Of a stretch of 64,000 nucleotides of DNA, positions 9,411 to 21,302 are shown one piece after another. Location: contig JAPOOC010000005.1 in the NCBI GenBank assembly GCA_026713605.1, positions 18,836 through 82,835 on the forward strand. The letters are read 5' to 3'. The stretch comes from Candidatus Kaiserbacteria bacterium. GTDB taxonomy: Bacteria; Patescibacteriota; Minisyncoccia; Phycocordibacterales; JABAAK01. Each line of letters opens with the position of its first letter. Positions within the stretch are counted from its first letter, which is position 1. The translations under genes were made by a program, and so were the position numbers. The notes under the pieces are model-generated. The model was not told the DNA's origin, ran no database searches, and saw nothing but the letters and a program-made list of their open reading frames with translations.

Positions 9411-10496
9411 ATGGCAATTGTAGGGTGGTACACTATACAACATATGGCAACAGAGGTTATACTGCTCGGAATTGCTGTTTTTTGGTCGGCAGTGGGTATG
9501 GGTGTCGGCGTGACGGCAATAGTTATTCCCGGTCTTAAAAAAATGCAAGCGCAAAAAAAGAAGGATCGCAAAGAGACGATGTATGGAACAGAGGCGGTTG
9601 AGTTTAATAAGATACGGAAGGCAGAAGAGCGACAGGTAAAAAAGGAACCTGTTGCACGGATCGGTGGCCTGACCTTGCTGCCGACCATCCTATTTATCGG
9701 CTTGTGTGTTGCATGGGTACTGCAATCAACATTGCTGGCGGTGTGTGTGATGTTGATACTCGGCGTAGCATTAGTAGCACTGTATGATGACCTGCTTGAT
9801 ATTGGTTTGCTACAGGGGACGGTGTGGCGGGCACGAAAGCGATTACTACTGATGGGATTGGTTGCATTTGTGGGTGGCGTCGGACTCTACTATCAACTGC
9901 TACCCGGTACCATTTCATTGTTACCGTTCCCAGCATTTGAGCAAATAGCGGTCGGGGCATGGTTGCCACTGCTGTTCGTAGCGTGGTACATTTTTTGGCA
10001 AGCATCATCTATGATAGACGGCATAGACGGGCTGTCGGGCAGTATATTTTTGGTGTTATTTATTGGTACCGGGGTAGTAAGCATGCTGCAGGGAAGCGTT
10101 GAACCATTGCTGTTGAGCGCTTTAGGGGCGGGTGTCATGGTGCCATGGCTATTTGTAAACTATGCGCCGGCAAAGGCGTATCTGACAGAAACAGGTATTA
10201 CTATTCTGTTAATGCTATATGCGTTGATATCGTTTCTGCTTGGCAGCGGGGAACAAGCGGGTGACGGCTTATGGGTTGGCGGTATATTTGGATTGGCACT
10301 CATAGCAACATGGGGCTCAAACGCACTGCAGTTGCTATACCGAAAGAAAACCGGCAAAAAACTATTTCGCATCGCCCCGCTGCACCATCATTTTGAGGCA
10401 CTCGGATTGCCGGGACACGCCGTGGTAACGCGATATATGCTGGCAACAATCGTGTGTGTCATAGGCGGACTCTCGCTCCTTTTCCTGCTACGCTAA
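9411..10496 (+). CDS. mraY: phospho-N-acetylmuramoyl-pentapeptide transferase
   Basis: 361-aa polytopic protein with the MraY-diagnostic APLHHHFE motif (PLHHHFEALG) and DD motifs (LYDDLLD). Located next to ftsW. Confidence 0.75.
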   Translation: MAIVGWYTIQHMATEVILLGIAVFWSAVGMGVGVTAIVIPGLKKMQAQKKKDRKETMYGTEAVEFNKIRKAEERQVKKEPVARIGGLTLLPTILFIGLCVAWVLQSTLLAVCVMLILGVALVALYDDLLDIGLLQGTVWRARKRLLLMGLVAFVGGVGLYYQLLPGTISLLPFPAFEQIAVGAWLPLLFVAWYIFWQASSMIDGIDGLSGSIFLVLFIGTGVVSMLQGSVEPLLLSALGAGVMVPWLFVNYAPAKAYLTETGITILLMLYALISFLLGSGEQAGDGLWVGGIFGLALIATWGSNALQLLYRKKTGKKLFRIAPLHHHFEALGLPGHAVVTRYMLATIVCVIGGLSLLFLLR

Positions 10497-10519
10497 CCAA
10501 CTGACCTTTTCATTTTTCT

Positions 10520-11686
10520 ATGCAAAACATTATTCGACAGTACATTACCAAAAAAGACCAACTACAGCGGTTGATATTGCTGATGATCGGCACGCTGTTT
10601 TGTATGGGACTGTTTTTCCTCTTTTATGCATATATTGCCGAGGCGATAAAATTACCGAACATAAAGATATTTAACAACTTAGGCGTGCAAATCGCAGCAT
10701 TTGGAGTCGGATTGTTGGTAATGTACTTGGTATCACGATTGAAGTATCAGGTATACCGACGGCACATTCTTTTGATCGGCGGACTCTCGCTGGTATCAAT
10801 GTTGCTACTGGTCACGCCATTGGCAATTGAGCGGAACGGTGCGGTGCGGTGGTTAGACCTGGGCATTCTACAGTTTCAACCTTCTGAAATTCTCAAGTTG
10901 GGGTTTGTGCTATTTTTCGCATTCTTATTTACACAGAAAAGCATACGGAACAATGTAAAAAAACTACTCACTTTCACAGCTGCCGGATTCATCGTACTAC
11001 TGGGGACTTCAGTGCTACAACCGGACTACGGAGCAGCAGTAATTATCGGTAGTGCCATTATGGGGATGGCAATTATCGCCCGACTGCCAAAAGTATGGTG
11101 GATAAGCATCATCAGCGCGCTCATCGTGGCAAGTATTGGCCTTAGTTTTGTCGCACCATCATACATTGCGAATCGATTTAAGGTATTCTATGATATTAAT
11201 TTTGGTGAACTAACTCCAGAACAACGGTATGGCGAAGCATATCATTCATTACAGAACTTAGAGGCGGTTCGAGTCGGAGGGTTACTCGGGCAAGGACCCG
11301 GATATGTGGCACAGAGTTCACATCTCAGTATTCCCGAGGTGACAACCGACTCTATTTTCGCACTCATTGCAGCTGAAGTCGGCTTTATCGGATCACTCAT
11401 TTTGATTACATTGTTTTTATGCTTCTTTCTGTTATGCTATACCATCGCTGACTTTACAAAAGACCCGTTCGGAAAGTATGTGGTGGTGGGTATCACGACA
11501 CTATTTGCCGCACAATTTTTCGTAAACATCCTGGTGGTACTCGGATTACCAGCAACCGGTATTCCACTCATCTTCTTTAGTCGTGGTGGTAGCTCTTTGG
11601 TTATCACACTTGCTTCAGTAGGTATCATCTTGAATGTGCTGAAACAGAAGCCAACACGGCGAGAAATTTACCGAGGAGAGATATAG
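10520..11686 (+). CDS. ftsW: FtsW/RodA/SpoVE family peptidoglycan glycosyltransferase
   Basis: Conserved SEDS motifs LQPDYGAAVIIG and GLPATGIPLIFFSRGGSSL. Confidence 0.8.
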   Translation: MQNIIRQYITKKDQLQRLILLMIGTLFCMGLFFLFYAYIAEAIKLPNIKIFNNLGVQIAAFGVGLLVMYLVSRLKYQVYRRHILLIGGLSLVSMLLLVTPLAIERNGAVRWLDLGILQFQPSEILKLGFVLFFAFLFTQKSIRNNVKKLLTFTAAGFIVLLGTSVLQPDYGAAVIIGSAIMGMAIIARLPKVWWISIISALIVASIGLSFVAPSYIANRFKVFYDINFGELTPEQRYGEAYHSLQNLEAVRVGGLLGQGPGYVAQSSHLSIPEVTTDSIFALIAAEVGFIGSLILITLFLCFFLLCYTIADFTKDPFGKYVVVGITTLFAAQFFVNILVVLGLPATGIPLIFFSRGGSSLVITLASVGIILNVLKQKPTRREIYRGEI

Positions 11687-11767
11687 GGCGGGAGCAGAAA
11701 CAGCCACAAGATTCCCTCGCTGATAAGGTGTGCATAGCACAGGGGGAGACAGATTGGGTGTGGTAGT

Positions 11768-12463
11768 ATGAAAAGTATAATGAGTATTGTATCGTTTGAA
11801 GAGGCAACAAAGTATTACGGCGATAATGTCGCGGTGCAAGATGTGTCCTTTGAAATTGACGGCGGCGATTTTGTTACCTTAGTCGGACACTCCGGCTCGG
11901 GAAAGAGTACCCTCTTTAAGTTAATTTTAGGTGAGGAAGATGTGTATTCGGGTGTGGTGCGTCGCGGTGGTGTAGACATTGCCGGCATGACAAAGAAAGA
12001 ATTACTGGAACACCGGCGAAAGACCGGCGTTATTTTCCAAAACTTCCGGTTACTACCACGAAAAACGGTCTATGAAAACATTTCATTTGCGATGGAGGCG
12101 CTCGGCTACGATGAAAAACAGATAGAAAACGATGTGCCATATGTACTGGACTTGGTTGATCTGCGACATAAGGTGTGGTCGTTTTCGCAGGAACTCTCCG
12201 GCGGTGAACAGCAGCGGGTAGCAATCGCGCGAGCAATTGTAAATCAGCCAGAACTACTGCTCGCAGATGAACCAACCGGCAACCTTGACCCAGTGAACGC
12301 ACACGAAGTCATCAACATCTTGAAGCAAATTAACAAACTCGGCACCACCGTTATACTCGCAACACACGACCAAGCAGTGGTAAAAAAGATAAAAAAACGG
12401 GTCATTACCCTCGTAAATGGGGAAGTTGCGCTTGATGACCCGAAAGGTAAGTATATTCTATAA
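11768..12463 (+). CDS. ftsE: cell division ATP-binding protein FtsE
   Basis: ABC ATPase with GHSGSGKST, LSGGEQQRVAIARAI and LLLADEPTGNLD. Immediately followed by ftsX. Confidence 0.8.
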   Translation: MKSIMSIVSFEEATKYYGDNVAVQDVSFEIDGGDFVTLVGHSGSGKSTLFKLILGEEDVYSGVVRRGGVDIAGMTKKELLEHRRKTGVIFQNFRLLPRKTVYENISFAMEALGYDEKQIENDVPYVLDLVDLRHKVWSFSQELSGGEQQRVAIARAIVNQPELLLADEPTGNLDPVNAHEVINILKQINKLGTTVILATHDQAVVKKIKKRVITLVNGEVALDDPKGKYIL

Positions 12464-12465
12464 GT

Positions 12466-13404
12466 ATGGCAGGAACACAAATAAAAAGAATTTTTTACTT
12501 AGGATTAGTAAATGTAGTACGAAACTCATTTGTTTCGTTCTCGGTGGTATTTATTATGACCGTCTCATTATTCATCGTCGGCTTTTCATTGCTGTTCGGA
12601 CAGGTAATGAATGATGTTACTGAGGAGTTGCGAAACAAAGTTGATGTAACCGCATACTTTATAACAGACACTCCCGAAGAGCAGATACTCGCATTTCGCG
12701 ATCGATTAGAAGAGCTCTCACAGGTGCGAGAGGTTTTCTATGTGTCACAAGAGACGGCATTAGAAGAGTATCGCAAACGACATGAAAATGACTTAGATAT
12801 TTTGCACGGATTAGATCTCCTCAAAGAAACCGAGACCCCAAACCCGTTCCGCGCACGACTATCCATTCGTGCACAGCAGTCAGGTGACTTCGAATCAATT
12901 GTTCGCTTTTTAGATAATGAAGATGTCCTATCCGACAACCCATCAACAGTGATTGATAAGATTGATTTCTATCAAAACCGGCAAGTCATCATGCGCCTCT
13001 CGTCCGTTGTAGACACCGCAACATTACTGACCCATGTGGTAATCGCACTGCTGATATTTATCTCTTTCATCATCGTCTTTAATATCATCCGTCTCATCAT
13101 CTATCTCAGTCGCGAGGAGATCAAAGTAATGCGCCTTATCGGAGCGGAGGATTGGTATGTTCGGGCACCATTCTTGGTCTCAGGAGGCATCTACGGATTA
13201 GTTGGCTCAATTTTAGCAACCGTCATGCTGTACCCCATTTCCTACTGGCTTTCTCCGGTAGTTGAACGATTCTTTGAAGGGCAAGGTCTCTTCTCCTACT
13301 ATATTTCAGAGTTCTTCGTGTTAGTGCTTATTCTAACCGCCTTAGGAGTGTTTGTCGGAGTGTTTTCAAGCTACCTCTCCTCCCATCGCTATCTCGATGA
13401 TTAA
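12466..13404 (+). CDS. ftsX: cell division permease FtsX
   Basis: 312 aa with one N-terminal TM segment, a periplasmic domain and three C-terminal TM segments. Translationally coupled to ftsE. Confidence 0.75.
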   Translation: MAGTQIKRIFYLGLVNVVRNSFVSFSVVFIMTVSLFIVGFSLLFGQVMNDVTEELRNKVDVTAYFITDTPEEQILAFRDRLEELSQVREVFYVSQETALEEYRKRHENDLDILHGLDLLKETETPNPFRARLSIRAQQSGDFESIVRFLDNEDVLSDNPSTVIDKIDFYQNRQVIMRLSSVVDTATLLTHVVIALLIFISFIIVFNIIRLIIYLSREEIKVMRLIGAEDWYVRAPFLVSGGIYGLVGSILATVMLYPISYWLSPVVERFFEGQGLFSYYISEFFVLVLILTALGVFVGVFSSYLSSHRYLDD

Positions 13405-13457: not shown

Positions 13458-13532
13458 TGCCGGATCGTCTAATTGGTAGGACGACGGGTTTTGATCCCGT
13501 TAATCTAGGTTCGAGTCCTAGTCCGGCAGCCA
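13458..13532 (+). tRNA. tRNA-Gln (anticodon UUG), CCA encoded
   Basis: Acceptor stem TGCCGGA/TCCGGCA with U1:A72 as in many tRNA-Gln. D-loop AATTGGTAG. Anticodon stem ACGGG/CCCGT with loop TTTTGAT (anticodon TTG). T-arm GGTTCGAGTCC, then GCCA. A terminator hairpin AAACCC-ccgcaaa-GGGTTTTTGTTTT follows. Confidence 0.7.
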
Positions 13533-13682
13533 ATAAAATAGGTAATACCAAACATGACAAAACCCCCGCAAAGGGTTTTTGTTTTCATGGTCACAGCAAC
13601 CATAACGCAAACCCAAGAAATAGCAAATTTAGACGGTTGGTGATAGAATAAGAGTACATATAAACAATGTCATAAAATAGGT

Positions 13683-15740
13683 ATGAAAAAAATAGATTTT
13701 CACATCCACACCATTCCCACAAAAGGCAAGGATGCAGTTTTTGAATTTAATTCAACAAAATTTCAAGAATATGTCAACACTTTTTCTCTAGATGCTGTTG
13801 CTATAACAAATCATAATGTATTCAACATAGAGCAATACAATACAATAAAATCTTTTTTGCAGGGCGTTGTTATTTTTCCAGGCATTGAAATAGACCTTGA
13901 GGAGGGCCAATTATTATTGATTGGTGAAAATGAAGATCTCAATGATTTTAATCAGAAATGTAAATCTATAGAAAATGAGTTAGAGATAGGAAAAAAAATA
14001 ACTGCCAGTAAATTAAAAGAAATTTTTACTGATCTAAATAAATACTTACTAATACCTCATTACGATAAAAAACCAAAAGTTTCTCAAGACATAATTAACT
14101 CTTTCAACGGTTATATTTTTGTTGGTGAAGTTTCAAGTCCAAAAAAATTTTATCGTGCCATAAAAGATACAAGTTCCCTTGCGCCGGTTGTCTTTAGTGA
14201 TATTAGGATTGATGAGAACCTTGACCTTAAAGAATATCAGGGTAAGTACACATTTATTCAAACAAATTCTAACCCATTAACACTTGATGCAATTAAAGCC
14301 GCTTTAATGGATAAAAATAAAATTTTTTTATCCGACAGCGGTAAGCGTGAATTTTTCCAAGTTTTTAACAGCGGGCAAGAGTTATCAAGCGGGTTAAACG
14401 TTGTTGTCGGCGGTAGATCAACGGGTAAAACTTACCTTTTAGACAAGTTAGATAAAATTTTTAATGTTGGAGATCAGTCAGTTAAATACATCAGGCAATT
14501 TGACTTAGTAACGGATGATGAAAAAAAATTTGATGAGCGAGTAGAAAGAGAGAAGAGTGAGGTCAAAGAAGAATATCTAAGAGAATTTCGTAATGTGGTA
14601 GAAAGTGTCATTGAAATAGATTTAAAAGAAACAAATCATAAATTGGAAAAATACATTGAGACATTGTTAGATTTTGCTTCAAGTGAAAAACTTCAGGATG
14701 AGTTTTCTAAGGCAAATCTATTCAAGGAAAATATGTATATGGTAAGGCAGGATCAGGAGGATGAATTAAAAAATCTATTCAATGCTGTTGCCTTGCTGTT
14801 GAAGAATAACACACATAAAGAAACAATAAGGCAATATATTTCCAGGGATGCCCTACAAGAATTGTTTGATGATCTAACAATGAAGTATAAACAAATGTTA
14901 GAGGCACGCCTAAAGAAGGAGTGGGTAAACATGGTGGTCAAAGATATAAAGCAACAATTACAAAGGAAAACATCTAGTCCAAAAATTGACGATGATGAGA
15001 TTGATTTCTATCAAGTAAAATTAGAAAGAGAGAAAATGAGGAGATTTAATGCCATTGCAAAGGGAATAAAGAAAGAAAATGAAATAAAAAAAGTAGATGC
15101 TTTCGGGAAGTTTAAAGTAAGAGCACTCGCAACCCATTATGCAAGGGCAGGAGATTTGCGTAATGAATCTGGAAAGAGGGTTTCTTTCGCCAATGCGTTC
15201 AAAAATTATGATAGGCCAATTGTTTTTTTGAGGGAATTAAAAAATATTGAAGATCTTTCAAAAAGCGATTTATATAAATACTTTTGTAAGGTAACTTATG
15301 AAGTATTAAACGAATATGAAAGAAAAGTGTCTGGTGGTGAAATGGCAGAGTTTAACTTGCTCAAGACTTTGGAGGATGCACGACAATACGAAATGTTGCT
15401 GATAGATGAACCTGAGTCTTCTTTTGATAATCTATTTCTGAAAGAGAGTGTAAATGAGGAAATTAAGGATCTTTCAAAAGATATGCCCGTTATCGTTGTG
15501 ACACACAGCAGTACCGTTGGCATGCTTTTGAAGCCTGACTACATTTTATACACAGAAAGAAAAATTGTTGATGGCAAAGATGAGTACAAGATTTTTTCTG
15601 GATCTCCTGGAGATAAAAGATTAAAAACCGCTGATGGCAACGAATCGGTGAAAAGTTATAATACACTCTTGAGCGCATTAGAGGGTGGGCAGGAAGCATA
15701 CGGTACTAAAAATAAATTATATGGGAGTTATAAAAAATGA
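13683..15740 (+). CDS. PHP-domain phosphoesterase fused to an ABC/SMC-like ATPase (OLD/SbcC-like architecture); candidate defense nuclease
   Basis: N-terminal PHP motifs DFHIHT, AITNHN and PGIEID. Walker A GGRSTGKTYLLD. C-terminal signature-like VSGGEMAEFNLL, Walker B LLIDEPESSFD and H-loop VVTHS. AT-rich codon usage. Confidence 0.55.
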   Translation: MKKIDFHIHTIPTKGKDAVFEFNSTKFQEYVNTFSLDAVAITNHNVFNIEQYNTIKSFLQGVVIFPGIEIDLEEGQLLLIGENEDLNDFNQKCKSIENELEIGKKITASKLKEIFTDLNKYLLIPHYDKKPKVSQDIINSFNGYIFVGEVSSPKKFYRAIKDTSSLAPVVFSDIRIDENLDLKEYQGKYTFIQTNSNPLTLDAIKAALMDKNKIFLSDSGKREFFQVFNSGQELSSGLNVVVGGRSTGKTYLLDKLDKIFNVGDQSVKYIRQFDLVTDDEKKFDERVEREKSEVKEEYLREFRNVVESVIEIDLKETNHKLEKYIETLLDFASSEKLQDEFSKANLFKENMYMVRQDQEDELKNLFNAVALLLKNNTHKETIRQYISRDALQELFDDLTMKYKQMLEARLKKEWVNMVVKDIKQQLQRKTSSPKIDDDEIDFYQVKLEREKMRRFNAIAKGIKKENEIKKVDAFGKFKVRALATHYARAGDLRNESGKRVSFANAFKNYDRPIVFLRELKNIEDLSKSDLYKYFCKVTYEVLNEYERKVSGGEMAEFNLLKTLEDARQYEMLLIDEPESSFDNLFLKESVNEEIKDLSKDMPVIVVTHSSTVGMLLKPDYILYTERKIVDGKDEYKIFSGSPGDKRLKTADGNESVKSYNTLLSALEGGQEAYGTKNKLYGSYKK

Positions 15741-15741
15741 T

Positions 15742-16092
15742 ATGAGGTATTTAAAAATAAAAAATGATCAAGGTTTTTATTGGGATGGAAAAGAGGATCG
15801 AGAAATTGATAAAATCAACAAGGATGACCTTCTTAAATTGCTGAATGCAGCAGAAACTGATGAGTTTTCGATGGATCCTTATGATGATAGTCTTATAAAG
15901 AATAAAGCCCATCAGATAATTTACGAAAATATACATTCAAAAATCACTCAATTTTTGGATGAAAAGGATCAGTTTAAAAATCAAGTTGATGGTTTATATA
16001 AAGAAGCAATAAGAAAATACTCTGCTGATGTTCAAAATAAAGAGACTGACGATATTGGTAATTTGGAAGATGAAAATGAGTCAGCAGATTGA
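15742..16092 (+). CDS. small acidic hypothetical protein, operon partner of the PHP-ATPase
   Basis: Its ATG is 2 nt after the upstream stop. 116 aa ending in an Asp/Glu-rich tail. The ORF track's longer version (15685) overlaps the upstream gene. Confidence 0.4.
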   Translation: MRYLKIKNDQGFYWDGKEDREIDKINKDDLLKLLNAAETDEFSMDPYDDSLIKNKAHQIIYENIHSKITQFLDEKDQFKNQVDGLYKEAIRKYSADVQNKETDDIGNLEDENESAD

Positions 16093-16095
16093 TCT

Positions 16096-17805
16096 TTGTG
16101 GCTTAGTGGTATACTGACTTACATGGAGAACGGCAAAGAAAATGGAAAGGGGAGGCACACGGAGCGTAGCAATAAAATCGGGTTGTTTATCAATCGAATG
16201 AGTGAGGTTGTACTGTCATTTCCGTTTAAGGATTGTATTCTTGAAGGAGGAATGACAAAGGAGGAGAAAAATGGTGGCAGAGAAGAGCGTTTTTTTTGTG
16301 AAGAGATAGATGGATATGAGATAGACACCTTGAAAGACAGGAAGGTACTGACTAATTTTAGCACAATAGATAGTAAAGGAGAAAAGAAGGCGAAAGACAC
16401 AGAAGGTGTTGACTTTTTTGACAAGCAAGGAAATTTAAAAAACAATCTTTTGATAAAGGGCAATAACTTGTTGACCTTATACTCAATGAAAGAAACATTT
16501 GGCGGAAAAGTGAAAATGATTTATATTGACCCGCCGTATAACACGAGTGGAGACAAAAATACTTTTACCTACAACAATTCATTTAATCACTCAACATGGC
16601 TTACCTTTATGAAAAACAGGTTAGAGGCAGCAAGAGATCTGCTGCGGGATGATGGGGTAATTTTTATCAGTATTGATGATAACGAACAAGCATACTTAAA
16701 GATTTTATGTGATGAGATTTTCGGGAGAGATAATTTTGTCGCGAATATTATTTGGGAAAAGAAGTATTCACCACAGAATGATGCGCGGTGGCTTTCGGAT
16801 ACGCATGACCATGTTTTGTTGTATTCAAAAAACAAAGAAGTGTGGCAACCGAATCTTTTACCAAGGACAGAAGAAATGGATGGCAGATATAAAAACCCGG
16901 ATAATGATCCAAGAGGGTTGTGGAAATCGGGTGACCTTTCAGTGAAAACTTATTCTGCCGCTATGGATTACCCAATCAGGACTCCAAGCAAAAGAACGGT
17001 TCGTCCGCCGGCAAGTCGCTGTTGGAGGTTTTCAAAAAAGAAATTTGAGGAGTTGAGAGTTGATAATAGGATTTGGTTTGGAGAAAAAGGTAATAATGTT
17101 CCAAGTTTAAAAAGATTTTTATCTGAAGTGAAGCAAGGGCTTGTGTCAAAAACAATATGGTATCGTGCAGAAGTTGGCGATAATCAGGAAGCGAAGCAAG
17201 AGATTAAGAATCTTTTTAAAGGAAGCGATACACTTTTCGATACTCCAAAGCCAACACGACTTATTAAAAGAATGTTGCAGTTGGCAACAGATGACAACGA
17301 CATCATCCTTGACTTCTTCGCCGGCAGTGGCACCACCGGACATGCGACGCTTGCGCTGAATGCAGAGGATGGCGGCAACCGAAAATTCATACTCTGCGAA
17401 CAAATTGACGAGCATTTTGATATCTGCAAAGAGCGGCTGCAGAAGGTTTTGAAACAGAGTGGTAAACTACTTGCAAAACCAAGCAAAGAAAAGGTCATAG
17501 CATTTGAATTAAAGCAATATAATCAGATATTTTTAGACAAAATAAAAAAAGCAAAAACCAAAAGGGAATTAGGTGAGGTATACAAAAGTATGCAGAAGAA
17601 TGCATTTTTACAGTTTTGGTTTGAGAAAAAAGAGTTTGAGAAAAATGGATATAAAAAGAAGGAGGTGAATGAGCAGAAGGAAGAATTGCTCGGCATCCTT
17701 GACCTCAATCAGCTCTACTTGAATTATCCGGAAATGGAGGATGTAACATATAAAGTGGCGAAGATTGATCAAGATTTAACGCACAAATTCTATGCCAACA
17801 CTTGA
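16096..17805 (+). CDS. mod: type III restriction-modification Mod (N6-adenine DNA methyltransferase)
   Basis: Motif IV MIYIDPPYNT, AdoMet motif FFAGSGTTGHA and a variable central region. Followed by the Res helicase with a 14-bp overlap. True start Met uncertain. Confidence 0.8.
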   Translation: MWLSGILTYMENGKENGKGRHTERSNKIGLFINRMSEVVLSFPFKDCILEGGMTKEEKNGGREERFFCEEIDGYEIDTLKDRKVLTNFSTIDSKGEKKAKDTEGVDFFDKQGNLKNNLLIKGNNLLTLYSMKETFGGKVKMIYIDPPYNTSGDKNTFTYNNSFNHSTWLTFMKNRLEAARDLLRDDGVIFISIDDNEQAYLKILCDEIFGRDNFVANIIWEKKYSPQNDARWLSDTHDHVLLYSKNKEVWQPNLLPRTEEMDGRYKNPDNDPRGLWKSGDLSVKTYSAAMDYPIRTPSKRTVRPPASRCWRFSKKKFEELRVDNRIWFGEKGNNVPSLKRFLSEVKQGLVSKTIWYRAEVGDNQEAKQEIKNLFKGSDTLFDTPKPTRLIKRMLQLATDDNDIILDFFAGSGTTGHATLALNAEDGGNRKFILCEQIDEHFDICKERLQKVLKQSGKLLAKPSKEKVIAFELKQYNQIFLDKIKKAKTKRELGEVYKSMQKNAFLQFWFEKKEFEKNGYKKKEVNEQKEELLGILDLNQLYLNYPEMEDVTYKVAKIDQDLTHKFYANT

Positions 17806-20542
17806 AGAAACATTGCAGAATTTTCTGTTCAACAAGATAAAAGAGGATGACAGATACCCATCATTTCGTGAAAATGATGTTCCTGCACATATTGCAGATA
17901 ACCTTGCAAAAAGCAAGACACTCAGACCATATCAGGAAGAGGCAGTGAAACGGTTTCTCTACTGCTTTGGAGAAAGTGGCGGAATACCTCAAAAAAATCA
18001 TCTGCTATTCAACATGGCAACTGGCTCCGGGAAAACATTGATCATGGCGGCTGCTATCCTGCACCTCTATGCAAAAGGATACCGCAACTTCATATTTCTC
18101 GTACACAGCAAAAATATCCTGACACAAGCAATTAACTCTTTTACTAACGCATCGTATGAGAAGTACTTATTTAACCAAAAGATTTCTTTCAATGGCAGGG
18201 CAATTGAAACAAGGAAGGTCACCGATTTTGAGAATGCAAACGATATTGACATCAACATGATATTTATGACCACCCAGTTGTTTTTTAACCGGATGAATAA
18301 TGCTGCTGAGGATGTGTTGCAGAAGAGTGATTTTGCAGATAACCAGACCGTTGTCATTGCAGATGAAGCGCATCACTTGAATGTTGAAACTGCAAAAAAT
18401 ATTAAGGAAAGAGATAACTGGGAACGGTCAGTTACAGAAGTATTGAATATGCGGGATGATAATGTGCTATTAGAGTTCACAGCAACCGTTGATCTGATGA
18501 ACCCGTACATCAATAAAAAGTACAAAGACAAGTTGCTCTATAAATACGATTTTGCAGAATTCAATAACGACGGCTACTCAAAGCAGGTACAATTTCTCTT
18601 TAACAAAGAGGCGAAAATCGCAGATCAAAAGAGGTTGCTTATTGTCAATGCGGTCGCACTGTCACAATTCAGGAAAATGCAGTTTGAAGATTTGGGGTAC
18701 CCACACATTAACCCTATCATGCTCGTCAAGTCAAAAAGGATAGCAGATAGCGAACAAGATAAAGAGTTTTTCCATGAAGTCATAAACACATTAAAGGTTA
18801 GTGATTTCAAATTTCTTAAGAATGTGCAAAAAGACGAGAAACAGGTCGTGTCTTCATTGTTCAAGTATTTAGAACGCAAAAAAATCAGCGAAGGTGCGTT
18901 CATTCAAAGTATTCGCTCAGCTTTTACAGAGAAAAGCACAATCATCTATAATTCAAAAAATCAAAAGAACGCAGAATTGCTGAAGGATTTAGACGAACAA
19001 AATCCAAGAAACATCATTCGCGTTGTGTTTTCGGTCAACGCACTCAACGAAGGGTGGGATGTGCTGTCGCTCTATGACATTGTGCATTTTGATATAGGCA
19101 AGGATAAAAAGGTAAAACAGCAGGATATTCAATTGATCGGGCGAGGTGCACGATACTGCCCTTTTTTGCTTAAGGAGGAAAAGAATAGCCACAATTTATT
19201 CGGCGTATACGGCACCGAACCCGACAAGAGAAAATTTGACGACATTGGCATCAAGATTGACGAAAGAAAGATACTTGATAATTTCTACTATCATTTTGTG
19301 GAAACACAAACATTTCTTGATGGGTTAATTAAGAATCTAAAGAATGAGGGGATTCTCAACGAAGAGGTGCAGAAAGTTTCCATCAAAATGAAAGATTCAT
19401 TTATGCAATCCAATACCTATAAAAAAGGATTTGTATTAGTAAATAGCATCGAAAAAAGGCAAAAGACAACAAAAGATGAGAAGGAGCGGGTGTTCGGAGA
19501 AACACTGGATGTTACGGCATATGAACTAAGTGCGAGAGCCCTGACAGATGCCGAAGAAGCAAAAAATGCGAGCGGCAGAAAGGTTGGAGACATGAACATC
19601 ATAAAAGATTTTGATAGGAACATCATCAAAAAATCACTAATGGCAGCAGAAAATGGTTTTTTTAGATTTGCAAACCTGAAAGAACATATAACCTACCTAC
19701 AATCCATTGATCAATTTATTGATGAAGGTTTGGGTACATACACAATCAGGTATGAGCATCAGGTCGGAAAGGACATACACAATCTGGAAGTGAGAGAGAA
19801 GTTGCAGCTGCTGATAGGTGAAATACTACCAAAAGTGCGCAAGATAGTAGATAGGGAGCTTCCTAAGAAGAGTGCTGGCAGAGAGTTCAGGCCGGTTTCC
19901 TTACGAAAAATCTTTGAAAAAGAGAAGTCAGTGTATATACGATCGCACCCGGAAACCAATGAAAGAACAGGAAAGGTTGAATATGTTTCTCCGGGCGAAA
20001 GGGCGGAGGCGCAGTCGGACAGCAATAATCCAAAGTTGCAATTAGACATCGCAAAGCTTGAGTGGTATGCGTACAACGAAAACTACGGAACAAGCGAAGA
20101 GAAGCGATTCGTCAAGTACATAGATTCTCAAATAGAACAGTTATTTGAAAAGTTCACAGGAGCAGAAATATTTCTTCTAAGGAACGAGTTGGACTACTGG
20201 ATATACGGAGAGGGCGGAAAACGGTTTTCTCCAGATTACCTCTTATTCATCAATGATGCAAAGGGGAAAAAGTTCTACTACCAATGCATTTTTGAGCCGA
20301 AGGGATCGCATCTACTGGAAAAGGACAGGTGGAAAGAAAAAACTCTTGAAGAACTTGAAAAGATGACAAAGGTGTCTTTTGATATAAAAGATGGAGATAA
20401 AAAGGCATATGCTAAGTACTTGGGAGAAGTAAAAAAGATGGGGTACACGATAATCAAGAATATGGGATTCGCATTCTATAACTCGGAAAATGCAGAGCAG
20501 TCACTCAAATTTAAGGGACAATTTCAAAAAATATATGATTGA
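17792..20542 (+). CDS. res: type III restriction enzyme Res subunit (SF2 helicase-nuclease)
   Basis: Helicase motif I NMATGSGKT and motif II VIADEAHHLN. 916 aa. Overlaps mod. Confidence 0.8.
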   Translation: MPTLEETLQNFLFNKIKEDDRYPSFRENDVPAHIADNLAKSKTLRPYQEEAVKRFLYCFGESGGIPQKNHLLFNMATGSGKTLIMAAAILHLYAKGYRNFIFLVHSKNILTQAINSFTNASYEKYLFNQKISFNGRAIETRKVTDFENANDIDINMIFMTTQLFFNRMNNAAEDVLQKSDFADNQTVVIADEAHHLNVETAKNIKERDNWERSVTEVLNMRDDNVLLEFTATVDLMNPYINKKYKDKLLYKYDFAEFNNDGYSKQVQFLFNKEAKIADQKRLLIVNAVALSQFRKMQFEDLGYPHINPIMLVKSKRIADSEQDKEFFHEVINTLKVSDFKFLKNVQKDEKQVVSSLFKYLERKKISEGAFIQSIRSAFTEKSTIIYNSKNQKNAELLKDLDEQNPRNIIRVVFSVNALNEGWDVLSLYDIVHFDIGKDKKVKQQDIQLIGRGARYCPFLLKEEKNSHNLFGVYGTEPDKRKFDDIGIKIDERKILDNFYYHFVETQTFLDGLIKNLKNEGILNEEVQKVSIKMKDSFMQSNTYKKGFVLVNSIEKRQKTTKDEKERVFGETLDVTAYELSARALTDAEEAKNASGRKVGDMNIIKDFDRNIIKKSLMAAENGFFRFANLKEHITYLQSIDQFIDEGLGTYTIRYEHQVGKDIHNLEVREKLQLLIGEILPKVRKIVDRELPKKSAGREFRPVSLRKIFEKEKSVYIRSHPETNERTGKVEYVSPGERAEAQSDSNNPKLQLDIAKLEWYAYNENYGTSEEKRFVKYIDSQIEQLFEKFTGAEIFLLRNELDYWIYGEGGKRFSPDYLLFINDAKGKKFYYQCIFEPKGSHLLEKDRWKEKTLEELEKMTKVSFDIKDGDKKAYAKYLGEVKKMGYTIIKNMGFAFYNSENAEQSLKFKGQFQKIYD

Positions 20543-20753
20543 TAAGATGAGGTGCGGGTGTACTTTACCTTCTCAACATCTCACATCACAGCGTTAAGGG
20601 TTTGTCAAAGCATTACTGTTTTTCCAAAAATAAGTACTATGTATATCTGTACGACACTTTTTGGAGGTCTAAATAGTGGACATGCCACCCGGAGTTTTAG
20701 GTCTCCGTTATCAAAACCTTTTTTTCATACACCGCCAAGCAACCTACCGGCAG

Positions 20754-21302
20754 TTACCTGCTCTCATGCAAAGTTTTTTCTACAAGATCCCAGAAGCGTT
20801 TTGAGTGATTCATTTCCTTGAGGTGGCAGAGTTCGTGAACAATAAGTTTGTCGGCCTCCCGTTTGGGTAGGAATATAATTTTATAGTTGAAAGTGATATT
20901 TCTGTTTGATGAACAAATGCCCCAGCTCGCCCGAAGTTGTTTTACCCGTATCATGTTATACGAAAATTTATTCTTCCTATTCCAGTAGGAAACCTTTTCT
21001 TCGCAAAAACGCTCCGCCCGCTCTTTGTACCGAAGAAAGTGCGCACGATCTTCAATCGCAAGGTTCTCATTCGTTCCATATTTTTTTGCTAACGATTCAG
21101 TGCGTTCCGTTATCCATGGCTGCTTCTCTCGAATAAATGTTTCAACAGTCGCCTGTTTAACCCACTTCGGTTTGGTAACCGTTATTTTCCCGCCGATACC
21201 AACTGCAAGCTTTAGGTATCGCGCTTTCGGGTGGTTAAGCAACTCATAGGCGATGTATTGATTTTTATATCTAATTTTTTGTTGCGAGCGACGGGTACTC
21301 AT
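20754..21302 (-). CDS. DUF45/YgjP-like (M48-family) zinc metallohydrolase
   Basis: HExxH motif in IVHELCHLKEMNHSKRFW, typical of the YgjP/DUF45 family that is frequently linked to R-M loci. 182 aa. Confidence 0.65.
   Translation of the reverse strand: MSTRRSQQKIRYKNQYIAYELLNHPKARYLKLAVGIGGKITVTKPKWVKQATVETFIREKQPWITERTESLAKKYGTNENLAIEDRAHFLRYKERAERFCEEKVSYWNRKNKFSYNMIRVKQLRASWGICSSNRNITFNYKIIFLPKREADKLIVHELCHLKEMNHSKRFWDLVEKTLHESR

What the first reader, a model, noticed from the sequence alone, without database searches (positions are those of the whole stretch)
13683..16092. PHP phosphoesterase fused to an ABC/SMC-type ATPase: OLD/SbcCD-like logic with a different nuclease domain
The protein combines three N-terminal PHP motifs (DFHIHT, AITNHN, PGIEID) with a Walker A (GGRSTGKT) and, about 350 residues later, signature-like VSGGE, Walker B LLIDEPE and H-loop VTHS. 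That is the split ABC ATPase head seen in OLD, Gabija GajA, PARIS AriA and SbcC, but with a PHP domain where those carry TOPRIM or Mre11-like nucleases. A small acidic protein is translationally coupled downstream. A candidate novel ATP-dependent anti-phage nuclease module sitting next to a type III R-M system.
Basis: partly seen in the sequence, partly recalled or inferred. Interest (0 to 1): 0.65.

Follow-up and report, generated by a model that had tools for sequence, protein, structure and literature searches.

The report
PHP-nuclease/ABC-ATPase defence candidate PDC-M49
The gene really encodes a phosphoesterase fused to an SMC-like ATPase, followed by a tightly coupled small acidic partner, but this pair is already listed as the untested phage-defence candidate PDC-M49 and is a distant relative of the proven anti-phage exonuclease Ppl, so it is a new member of a known kind.

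Summary
ORF 13683-15740 (685 aa) has a PHP phosphoesterase domain fused to an ABC/SMC-type ATPase split by a ~190-residue helical insert. A 116-aa acidic protein starts 1 nt after its stop codon. Every quoted motif is present and conserved in homologues down to 23% identity.

The novelty claim does not hold. Both proteins match PADLOC's PDC-M49A and PDC-M49B models (E 6.6e-233 and 6.9e-31). PDC-M49 is one of 145 untested "phage defence candidates" found embedded in restriction-modification (RM) loci. Protein A also aligns end to end (hhalign probability 98.7%) with a TrlF-family ATPase that hits PADLOC's Ppl model. Ppl is a validated single-gene PHP+NTPase defence, reported to be an NTP-inhibited 3'-5' ssDNA exonuclease.

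- The A-B pair is conserved in 79 of 80 species-representative genomes across many phyla.
- It is usually AT-rich relative to its flanks.
- It occurs on Enterococcus and Staphylococcus plasmids.
- It has no conserved housekeeping neighbour and often sits inside or beside type I, II or III RM systems.

The most likely function is a Ppl-like, nucleotide-gated exonuclease defence module, with B as a regulatory subunit. No activity has been tested. In the Patescibacteria clade, B tails end in an SSB-like DIPF tip, which this copy lacks.

The parts
13458..13532 (+). tRNA-Gln (TTG). It marks the upstream edge of the low-GC island.
   Evidence: ARAGORN. GC falls from about 0.46 to 0.32 immediately downstream.
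13559..13579 (+). Terminator-like hairpin following the tRNA. It separates the tRNA from gene A.
   Evidence: Consensus scan and sequence.
13683..15740 (+). Gene A (PDC-M49A), 685 aa: a PHP phosphoesterase fused to an ABC/SMC-type ATPase.
   Evidence: ORF. PADLOC PDLC04680, E 6.6e-233, full length. Model with pLDDT 86.5. Fold matches.
13683..14357 (+). PHP domain, about aa 1-225. Motifs: DFHIHT (13695-13712), AITNHN (13800-13817), PGIEID (13878-13895), IPHYD (14052-14066) and FSDIR (14193-14207).
   Evidence: Motif coordinates. Conservation. Motifs I-III align with E. coli RNase AM. Foldseek hits to PHP structures. Pfam PF02811 is recorded on the 45%-identity relatives.
14409..14432 (+). Walker A / P-loop, GGRSTGKT. 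The Q-loop residue Q272 lies at 14496-14498.
   Evidence: G243, R245, G248, K249 and Q272 are 100% conserved.
14508..15077 (+). Helical (coiled-coil-like) insertion that splits the ATPase head, about aa 276-465.
   Evidence: DSSP assignment on the model: helices 280-342, 357-429 and 442-462. No conserved Cys, so no zinc hook.
15327..15509 (+). C-terminal half of the ATPase: signature VSGGE (15327-15341), Walker B LLIDEPE (15396-15416), D-loop SSFD (15417-15428) and H-loop VTHS (15498-15509).
   Evidence: This stretch aligns with ABC transporter ATPases.
15742..16092 (+). Gene B (PDC-M49B), 116 aa, pI 4.5. The conserved core is aa 1-95, followed by a disordered acidic tail. Its start codon lies 1 nt after A's stop codon.
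   Evidence: PADLOC PDLC04682, E 6.9e-31. 127 homologues. Model with pLDDT 85.8. No fold match in PDB or BFVD. A B homologue lies directly downstream of A in 79 of 80 genomes.
16123..17805 (+). Type III RM methyltransferase (Mod). The mechanical ORF begins at TTG 16096, while gene callers use ATG 16123.
   Evidence: PADLOC MTase_III, E 5.5e-113. Pfam N6_N4_Mtase.
17792..20542 (+). Type III RM restriction subunit (Res). It overlaps Mod by 14 nt.
   Evidence: PADLOC REase_III, E 3.8e-93. Pfam ResIII.
20754..21302 (-). YgjP-like metallopeptidase, convergent with the RM genes. It is probably the downstream edge of the island.
   Evidence: Pfam PF01863, E 8e-35. The same family was found among the neighbours of two other A-B loci.

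Best explanation
Genes A and B are an intact copy of the two-gene module that PADLOC lists as the candidate defence system PDC-M49. Here it sits in a low-GC island next to tRNA-Gln in a Candidatus Kaiserbacteria (Patescibacteria) genome, immediately upstream of a type III RM system.

Shown:
- A is a PHP-family metal-dependent phosphoesterase fused to a complete ABC/SMC-type ATPase head that is split by a helical insert.
- Both active sites are under strong purifying selection.
- A is a full-length distant homologue of TrlF/Ppl-type PHP-ATPases.
- B is an obligate, translationally coupled partner with no recognisable fold.
- The pair behaves as mobile accessory cargo and is often embedded in RM loci.

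Inferred, by homology with Ppl:
- A dimerises through nucleotide-sandwiched ATPase heads.
- Its PHP site degrades exposed DNA 3' ends exonucleolytically.
- Nucleotide binding or hydrolysis gates that activity, so it fires on phage DNA ends or on nucleotide depletion, stopping phage replication.
- B is a stoichiometric regulator. I suggest it is an inhibitor or adaptor that docks through its long helix onto the coiled-coil or head of A. This role is the least supported step.
For: Family membership: PADLOC PDC-M49A at E 6.6e-233 and PDC-M49B at E 6.9e-31. PDC systems are candidates found embedded in BREX, DISARM and type I RM loci.

Architecture: model with pLDDT 86.5. Foldseek hits to PHP structures and to RecN, JetC, SMC and Rad50 heads. 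The PHP motifs align with RNase AM.

Conservation: catalytic residues of both domains are 100% conserved in 110 representatives at 23-44% identity.

Link to Ppl/TrlF: NCBIfam TrlF at E 3e-22. A Listeria plasmid TrlF protein hits both PADLOC Ppl (E 1.8e-41) and PDC-M49A (E 3e-21). hhalign of the A alignment against that protein gives probability 98.7%, E 4.7e-16, over 641 columns end to end. For Ppl's activity and regulation see PMC11482910, PMC12904381 and PMC13434339 ref. 51.

A-B coupling: B lies directly downstream in 79 of 80 species-representative genomes. Its conserved start overlaps A by exactly 20 nt in 66 of 83 loci, or follows after a 1-4 nt spacer in the Patescibacteria clade.

Accessory or defence context:
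- HsdM-HsdS-[A-B]-HsdR arrangements.
- Type II RM on both sides.
- Type III RM next to the pair in the window, L012, L037 and L038.
- RM, MADS, Pbe, SoFic, GmrSD and HNH are the commonest neighbour families, with no conserved third gene.
- 64 plasmid records carry the pair, flanked by recombinases.
- GC of the pair is 9 points below its flanks in 46 of 49 loci, p=5e-14.
Against: - PDC-M49 has never been tested: Payne et al. call the 145 PDCs 'untested'.
- A does not hit PADLOC's Ppl model at all, and it scores far below the TrlF cutoff (79 against 350 bits). The mechanism is therefore transferred across a large evolutionary distance.
- The last PHP motif is D-x-R (R175 in 89% of representatives, H in 10%) instead of the canonical D-x-H, so metal stoichiometry and substrate may differ.
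- PHP enzymes also include RNases and nucleotide phosphatases.
- With my seed searches, only 9 of 57 loci have an RM homologue within 5 kb (a lower bound), so RM association is frequent but not the rule.
- B's role is pure inference. It has no fold match, and no complex prediction could be run.
Confidence: 0.6

Rival explanations
1. A toxin-antitoxin or addiction module. A is a toxic nuclease and the small acidic B is its antitoxin. The pair's main role would be to stabilise plasmids and genomic islands, possibly with abortive infection as a by-product.
For: The pair sits on 64 plasmid records, between recombinase genes and close to RelE and Abi genes. B is small, acidic, strictly linked and translationally coupled to A. 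The pair appears to be transferred horizontally, judged by its GC deficit.
Against: The gene order is large gene first, then small gene, and B's translation depends on A. This is unusual for type II TA systems. Most copies are chromosomal and lie inside RM operons. The homologue Ppl works as a single gene without an antitoxin. The two readings are not mutually exclusive.
Confidence: 0.15
2. The PHP domain acts on RNA or on nucleotides rather than on DNA ends. It could be an RNase AM-like exoribonuclease, or a phosphatase that depletes nucleotides or degrades a signal, driven by the ATPase.
For: The fold and motif matches to RNase AM (7ug9, 9etk, and E. coli Rnm) are as good as those to polymerase PHP exonucleases. 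The terminal D-x-H motif has changed to D-x-R.
Against: The ATPase is of the DNA-binding SMC/RecN/Rad50/JetC type. The only characterised relative, Ppl, is reported to be a ssDNA 3'-5' exonuclease.
Confidence: 0.12
3. A functional accessory of the neighbouring RM system. A-B would degrade the DNA ends produced by restriction, a RecBCD-like clean-up, and would have little activity on its own.
For: The pair is embedded between hsdS and hsdR. It is tightly packed with type III Mod-Res in different gene orders: A-B-Mod-Res in the window and Mod-Res-A-B in L012, L037 and L038. Ppl is reported to sense 3'-OH ends made by endonucleases.
Against: Most loci have no detectable RM neighbour. The RM types differ from locus to locus. 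The plasmid copies stand alone. Other systems found embedded in defence loci have proved to be autonomous.
Confidence: 0.1
4. A housekeeping DNA repair or replication factor, as an SbcCD or RecN analogue.
For: The fold resembles RecN and Rad50 heads, and PHP domains occur in replicative polymerases.
Against: Distribution is patchy: at least 532 of 185,579 species genomes. GC is atypical. The pair is carried on plasmids. There is no conserved repair or replication neighbour among 286 flanking genes.
Confidence: 0.03

Closest known systems
PADLOC PDC-M49 (phage defence candidate; Payne et al., bioRxiv 10.1101/2024.01.29.577857)
   Same: Both proteins match the family HMMs over their full length, with the same gene order and adjacency. 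The context is RM-embedded or RM-adjacent, as in the original discovery.
   Different: Nothing structural differs. This copy comes from a Patescibacteria genome and lies next to a type III RM system rather than inside a type I system. The family itself has no tested function.
Ppl (PplA; Gao et al. 2020), with mechanism in Xu et al., Mol Cell 2026 (known here only through PMC12904381 and PMC13434339)
   Same: A PHP phosphoesterase and an NTPase in one polypeptide acting in phage defence. A is linked to the family through a TrlF protein that hits both the Ppl and PDC-M49A models and aligns with A end to end.
   Different: A gives no direct hit to the Ppl HMM. A is about 200 aa shorter, mainly because its helical insert is shorter (685 aa, against 862 aa for the TrlF protein and 894 positions in the Ppl model). 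PDC-M49 always carries a second gene, B, which has no counterpart in TrlF/Ppl. No activity has been tested.
TrlF (NCBIfam NF045780; temperature-restriction locus of Photorhabdus, bioRxiv 10.1101/2020.06.02.129163)
   Same: An N-terminal PHP domain followed by an AAA-like/ABC ATPase. NCBIfam gives E 3e-22 over aa 3-275. In some A-B loci a TrlG-like gene (AlbA_2 + HATPase_c_4) follows directly, mirroring the trlF-trlG arrangement.
   Different: The score is 79 bits against a cutoff of 350, so this is not a TrlF equivalog. The trl operon has a TrlR regulator and no B.
OLD-family, Gabija GajA and PARIS AriA nucleases, and SbcCD/Mre11-Rad50
   Same: The design principle is shared: an ABC ATPase head split by a helical insert and coupled to a metal-dependent nuclease. 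There are weak sequence hits to AriA and HEC-01A, and fold hits to Rad50, SMC, RecN and JetC.
   Different: The nuclease is a PHP domain, not TOPRIM or Mre11. There is no zinc hook and no long coiled coil. B is not an Mre11-type or AriB-type partner.

Membership tests
PADLOC PDC-M49 | The large protein matches a PDC-M49A HMM. | tested here: met
   PDLC04680, E 6.6e-233, aa 1-683 against profile positions 1-672 of 674.
PADLOC PDC-M49 | The small protein matches a PDC-M49B HMM and is adjacent on the same strand. | tested here: met
   PDLC04682, E 6.9e-31. Its ATG lies 1 nt after A's stop codon.
PADLOC PDC-M49 | Anti-phage activity. | not testable with these tools
   Payne et al. describe the 145 PDCs as untested. 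No paper in the library mentions PDC-M49.
Ppl (PplA) | Match to the PADLOC Ppl model. | tested here: not met
   No Ppl hit even at E<=10. The link is transitive only, through a TrlF protein.
Ppl (PplA) | PHP phosphoesterase and NTPase in a single polypeptide. | tested here: met
   Model and fold matches. Catalytic residues conserved.
Ppl (PplA) | Single-gene system. | tested here: not met
   B follows A in 79 of 80 genomes. B has no homology to TrlF/Ppl-type proteins.
Ppl (PplA) | NTP-inhibited 3'-5' ssDNA exonuclease activity. | not testable with these tools
   This is a biochemical property, reported for Ppl in PMC12904381.
TrlF family AAA-like ATPase (NF045780) | Score at or above the curated cutoff of 350 bits. 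| tested here: not met
   79 bits, covering aa 3-275 only.
OLD / GajA / AriA-AriB class | A TOPRIM nuclease domain or partner. | tested here: not met
   No TOPRIM hit in Pfam or PADLOC. The N-terminal domain is PHP.
OLD / GajA / AriA-AriB class | An ABC ATPase with Walker A, Q-loop, signature, Walker B and H-loop split by an insertion. | tested here: met
   Weak AriA hit at E 3.4e-6.
SbcCD / Mre11-Rad50 | An Mre11-type calcineurin-like nuclease partner and a long coiled coil with a CxxC zinc hook. | tested here: not met
   B has no Pfam match and no fold match. The insert is about 190 aa with no conserved Cys.
PHP superfamily (PF02811) | HxH, H, E, H and D-x-H metal-binding motifs on a PHP (beta/alpha)7 barrel. 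| tested here: inconclusive
   HxH (H7, H9), H44, E69, H126 and D173 are conserved and the fold matches PHP structures. However, the final His is Arg in 89% of members, and the window protein itself does not reach Pfam PF02811, although its 45%-identity relatives do.

The most novel reading that the evidence does not exclude
PDC-M49 may be a two-component elaboration of Ppl in which B is the switch. In the Patescibacteria clade, B carries a roughly 30-aa acidic tail ending in D/E-x-I-P-F, the same tip as the C-terminal tail of bacterial SSB. B could therefore mimic the SSB tail. It might hold the PHP exonuclease in check by occupying an SSB-tail pocket, or tether it to SSB-interacting replication or recombination proteins, releasing it when phage ssDNA or a phage SSB competes. 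That would be a new way of sensing infection, by SSB-tail mimicry. The window's own B has the acidic tail but lacks the IPF tip.
Probability: 0.12. Interest if true: 0.6.

Novelty: new member of a known kind. Interest (0 to 1): 0.3.

Why it matters
This locus is a clean, intact example of an untested defence candidate in a candidate-phyla-radiation bacterium, a group whose immune repertoire is little explored. The analysis also links PDC-M49 to the Ppl/TrlF PHP-ATPases. I did not find that link stated in the papers I could read. The link supplies a concrete, testable mechanism (an NTP-gated 3'-end exonuclease) and a defined question: what does the obligate small partner B add? It does not reveal a new type of system.

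Tried and rejected
- **Sequence searches of PDB.** Full-length A, the A profile and the PHP domain alone returned only ABC-transporter ATPase stretches and no PHP-ATPase structure. The Listeria TrlF protein likewise found no Ppl or TrlF structure.
- **B against known families and folds.** Pfam, NCBIfam, PHROGs, PDB Foldseek and BFVD Foldseek gave nothing significant.
- **Gene-fission hypothesis.** I tested whether B corresponds to a segment present in the longer TrlF/Ppl proteins. hhalign found no similarity, so I rejected it.
- **The small ORF after the divergent Photobacterium A homologue.** It shows no detectable similarity to B.
- **Phage-borne copies.** None were found in 50,697 phage records or in PHROGs.
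- **Integration scars.** There is no direct repeat of the tRNA 3' end and no integrase in the island.
- **Promoter scan.** It found no more sites than the shuffled controls.
- **Protein-search quirk.** The search for homologous proteins did not return A's own sequence (best hit 72% identity), even though identical 685-aa genes sit on contigs L001-L004. I treated this as a quirk of the tool.
Full report
**1. The observation**

The + strand carries a 685-aa ORF at 13683..15740.

| Motif | Residues |
|---|---|
| DFHIHT | 5-10 |
| AITNHN | 40-45 |
| PGIEID | 66-71 |
| GGRSTGKT | 243-250 |
| VSGGE | 549-553 |
| LLIDEPE | 572-578 |
| VTHS | 606-609 |

The signature motif lies 306 residues after Walker A and Walker B lies 329 residues after it. 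A second ORF, B, starts at ATG 15742, 1 nt after A's TGA, and ends at 16092. B is 116 aa with pI 4.5, and its last 21 residues contain 9 acidic and 1 basic residue.

**2. The gene is real and both enzymatic halves are under selection**

- The word-indexed protein search found 1707 homologues. The nearest are 72% identical and come mostly from Patescibacteria metagenome-assembled genomes.
- An exhaustive profile search of 1.84 billion cluster representatives found 285 clusters at E<=1e-30, nearly all 665-700 aa long.
- In 110 full-length representatives sharing only 23-44% identity with the window protein, the following are 100% conserved: H7, H9, T42, N43, H44, E69 and D173 (PHP domain); G243, R245, G248 and K249 (P-loop); Q272 (Q-loop); S550 and G552 (signature); D575 and E576 (Walker B); and H608 (H-loop). 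H126 is conserved in 91%.
- The last PHP motif is D173-x-R175. It is Arg in 89% and the canonical His in 10%.

**3. Structure**

AlphaFold2 run on a 42-sequence alignment gave mean pLDDT 86.5.
- Residues 1 to about 225 form an alpha/beta domain.
- Residues 238-275 and 466-657 form the two halves of an ATPase head.
- Residues 276-465 form a helical insert.

Foldseek against PDB matched the ATPase part to RecN, JetC, SMC, cohesin, condensin and Rad50 heads (E 8e-8 to 1e-4). It matched the N-terminal part to PHP-family structures: TM0559 (2anu), PolC (3f2c), RNase AM (7ug9, 9etk) and Pol III alpha. A profile-to-sequence alignment with E. coli RNase AM lines up DFHIHT with DLHSHT, AITNHN with AITDHD and PGIEID with PGVEIS. 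Pfam does not call PHP on the window protein itself (only AAA_21, just below cutoff), but PF02811 is recorded on its 45%-identity relatives. No member of the family has a solved structure.

**4. What the pair is called**

Against PADLOC-DB, A matches PDC-M49A over its full length (E 6.6e-233) and B matches PDC-M49B (E 6.9e-31). PDC systems are the 145 "phage defence candidates" that Payne et al. derived from genes embedded in BREX, DISARM and type I RM loci. The authors state that these candidates are untested. Their supplementary table assigns two cassettes (FAM_00021>>FAM_01695 and FAM_00021>>FAM_02682) to PDC-M49. No paper in the library mentions PDC-M49 by name.

**5. Relationship to Ppl and TrlF**

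A PHP+ATPase protein is already a validated defence. Ppl (Gao 2020) is described as a single gene with an ATPase and a PHP domain, and it is countered by phage Bas63 gp130 (PMC11482910). A 2026 review describes E. coli Ppl as a ssDNA 3'-5' exonuclease. NTPs bound to its PHP and NTPase domains inhibit it, and it is activated by nucleotide depletion together with 3'-OH ends made by phage homing endonucleases (PMC12904381). The primary reference is Xu et al., Mol Cell 2026, cited in PMC13434339 and not held in the library.

- A does not hit PADLOC's Ppl model even at E<=10.
- NCBIfam gives a sub-threshold hit to the TrlF family AAA-like ATPase: E 3e-22, 79 bits against a cutoff of 350, covering aa 3-275.
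- I fetched a PGAP-annotated TrlF protein from a Listeria plasmid (L093, 862 aa). It hits PADLOC Ppl (E 1.8e-41) and also PDC-M49A (E 3e-21).
- hhalign of the A alignment against that protein gives probability 98.7%, E 4.7e-16, over 641 aligned columns from the first PHP motif to the C-terminus.

A is therefore a shorter, distant, full-length homologue of the TrlF/Ppl type, with the same domain order.

TrlF was named in the Photorhabdus temperature-restriction locus trlR-trlF-trlG, where TrlG is an AlbA_2 + HATPase_c_4 protein. In four A-B loci an AlbA_2 + HATPase_c_4 gene lies next downstream of B on the same strand. In the three Flavobacteriaceae loci (L035, L037, L038) it also carries a winged-helix domain and starts 3 nt after B. 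In L083 it has a Fic-like C-terminal domain instead and lies about 200 nt downstream.

**6. The partner B**

- B has 127 homologues. An identical protein is annotated in a Candidatus Kaiserbacteria genome, which identifies the host lineage.
- In a scan of one genome per species, at least 532 genomes encode a relative of A.
- In the 80 best loci, which span Patescibacteria, Bacteroidota, Pseudomonadota, Bacillota, Planctomycetota, Omnitrophota, Elusimicrobiota, Spirochaetia, Nitrospirales and Chloroflexota, a B homologue lies directly downstream on the same strand in 79. The exception is a contig that ends 100 nt after A.
- The conserved start MK-YLKI overlaps A's 3' end by exactly 20 nt in 66 of 83 loci. 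In the Patescibacteria clade, which includes the window, it follows A's stop after a 1-4 nt spacer. This is strong evidence for translational coupling and fixed stoichiometry.
- B's model (pLDDT 85.8) shows three short strands, a helix at 27-37, a long helix at 55-105 and a disordered tail.
- B matches nothing in PDB or BFVD, nor in Pfam, NCBIfam or PHROGs. It is not a detached piece of TrlF/Ppl.

**7. Context**

*In the window.* The pair sits directly after tRNA-Gln (13458-13532) and a terminator-like hairpin. It is followed 30 nt later by type III Mod and then Res, with a convergent YgjP-like peptidase at the far end. GC is 0.32 for A-B and 0.39 for the RM genes, against 0.46 for the rest of the window.

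*Elsewhere.*
- The pair lies between hsdS and hsdR in Bacteroidota.
- It lies between an EcoRI-like and a DpnII-like RM system, with an IS element, in another Patescibacteria genome.
- It lies after Mod-Res in L012, L037 and L038.
- In a Doudnabacteria genome it lies in a locus with no RM genes among the called neighbours, between a ParB-domain gene upstream and a GIY-YIG gene downstream.
- Among 286 genes at positions ±1 and ±2, no family recurs in more than 6 loci. The commonest are ResIII, N6_N4_Mtase, N6_Mtase/Eco57I, Methylase_S, HNH, GmrSD, MADS components, PbeA, SoFic, AlbA_2/HATPase_c_4, DUF2130, and resolvase or relaxase. Housekeeping families appear only once or twice each.
- A crude seed-based count found an RM homologue within 5 kb in 9 of 57 loci, which is a lower bound.
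- The pair's GC is on average 9 points below its flanks, lower in 46 of 49 loci (Wilcoxon p=5e-14).
- It occurs on 64 plasmid records (45 Enterococcus, 9 Staphylococcus, 7 Clostridium). On an E. faecalis plasmid it lies between two recombinase genes, near Abi and RelE genes.
- No phage record carries it.

**8. Mechanism**

*Shown:* a complete ABC ATPase and a PHP metal site on one chain, both conserved; an obligate coupled partner; mobile, accessory behaviour, often embedded in RM loci; and full-length homology to the TrlF/Ppl type.

*Inferred:* head-to-head dimerisation on nucleotide binding, as in all ABC/SMC ATPases; PHP-catalysed exonucleolytic attack on DNA 3' ends, gated by the nucleotide state, by analogy with Ppl; and B as regulator, inhibitor or adaptor, perhaps binding the coiled-coil neck through its long helix.

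I put about 0.6 on the overall defence-nuclease reading, and less on the specific Ppl-like gating. The rivals are a TA or addiction module (0.15), an RNA or nucleotide substrate (0.12), an RM accessory (0.10) and housekeeping repair (0.03).

**9. Side observation**

In the Patescibacteria clade, the acidic tail of B almost always ends in D/E-x-(I/L/V)-P-F, for example ...EINPEDIPF. 48 of the 120 listed B homologues match [DE].{0,2}IPF$, and further ones end in LPF or VPF. From my own knowledge, this is the signature tip of the bacterial SSB C-terminal tail (E. coli SSB ends DDDIPF), which docks onto ExoI, RecQ, PriA and other proteins. The window's own B has the acidic tail but ends ...EDENESAD. 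B proteins from Bacteroidota and Proteobacteria lack the tail altogether. This may point to SSB-tail mimicry as a regulatory device in one clade. It is not a property of the window copy.

**10. Verdict**

The locus is a new, intact member of a catalogued but untested candidate family (PDC-M49), and I show that this family is a two-gene relative of the characterised Ppl/TrlF PHP-ATPases. Interest is moderate to low, 0.3.

Noticed in passing
B homologues P0122-P0187 (Patescibacteria clade); compare window 16030-16092: The roughly 30-aa acidic tail of B ends in D/E-x-(I/L/V)-P-F in most Patescibacteria homologues. This is the same tip as the bacterial SSB C-terminal tail and may be SSB-tail mimicry. 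The window's B has the acidic tail but no IPF tip, and B proteins outside this clade lack the tail.
   Followed up: partly
A/B junction: window 15738-15744; loci L005-L091: The conserved B start overlaps the end of A by exactly 20 nt in 66 of 83 loci across many phyla. The Patescibacteria clade instead has a 1-4 nt spacer. The deposited annotation of the window's B (123 aa, start at 15721) probably begins 7 codons too early.
   Followed up: yes
L035:12293-13657, L037:12293-13660, L038:12293-13660, L083:12523-13998: An AlbA_2 (Schlafen) + HATPase_c_4 gene, the domain pair of Photorhabdus TrlG, lies next downstream of B on the same strand. In the three Flavobacteriaceae loci it also has a winged-helix domain and starts 3 nt after B. 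In L083 it has a Fic-like C-terminal domain and lies about 200 nt downstream. This mirrors the trlF-trlG pairing of the temperature-restriction locus.
   Followed up: partly
L093:5974-8562 (Listeria monocytogenes plasmid pGMI16-004): A PGAP-annotated 'TrlF family AAA-like ATPase' hits both PADLOC Ppl (E 1.8e-41) and PDC-M49A (E 3e-21). This ties the TrlF, Ppl and PDC-M49A families together. I did not see this link stated in the papers I could read.
   Followed up: partly
window 13458-13680 and 20542-21302: The A-B-Mod-Res cluster is a low-GC island (0.32-0.39 against 0.46). It is bounded by tRNA-Gln plus a terminator hairpin on one side and by a convergent YgjP-like metallopeptidase on the other. 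No integrase and no att-like direct repeat were found.
   Followed up: partly
window 13683-20542; L012:917-7334; L037 and L038: Type III RM systems sit tightly against A-B in at least four lineages, but in different gene orders: A-B-Mod-Res here and Mod-Res-A-B elsewhere. L012 has a different Res family. This suggests repeated independent association.
   Followed up: partly
L021:12445-13833, L027:4081-5280, L064:12484-13743: A DUF2130 protein is the next gene downstream of B in three unrelated genomes. Its function is unknown.
   Followed up: no
L094:5513-7943 (Photobacterium damselae plasmid): A divergent PDC-M49A homologue (714 aa) is followed by an overlapping 99-aa ORF that has no detectable similarity to B. 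It lies next to an Eco57I-like methylase and a BsuBI/PstI-type endonuclease. This may be a second family of small partners.
   Followed up: partly
window 9411-13404: The genes upstream of the island are ordinary cell-envelope and cell-division genes. FtsE-like and FtsX-like genes have Pfam support from the matching contigs. By eye from the translations, MraY-like and FtsW/RodA-like genes also appear. The island is therefore inserted in a housekeeping neighbourhood.
   Followed up: no
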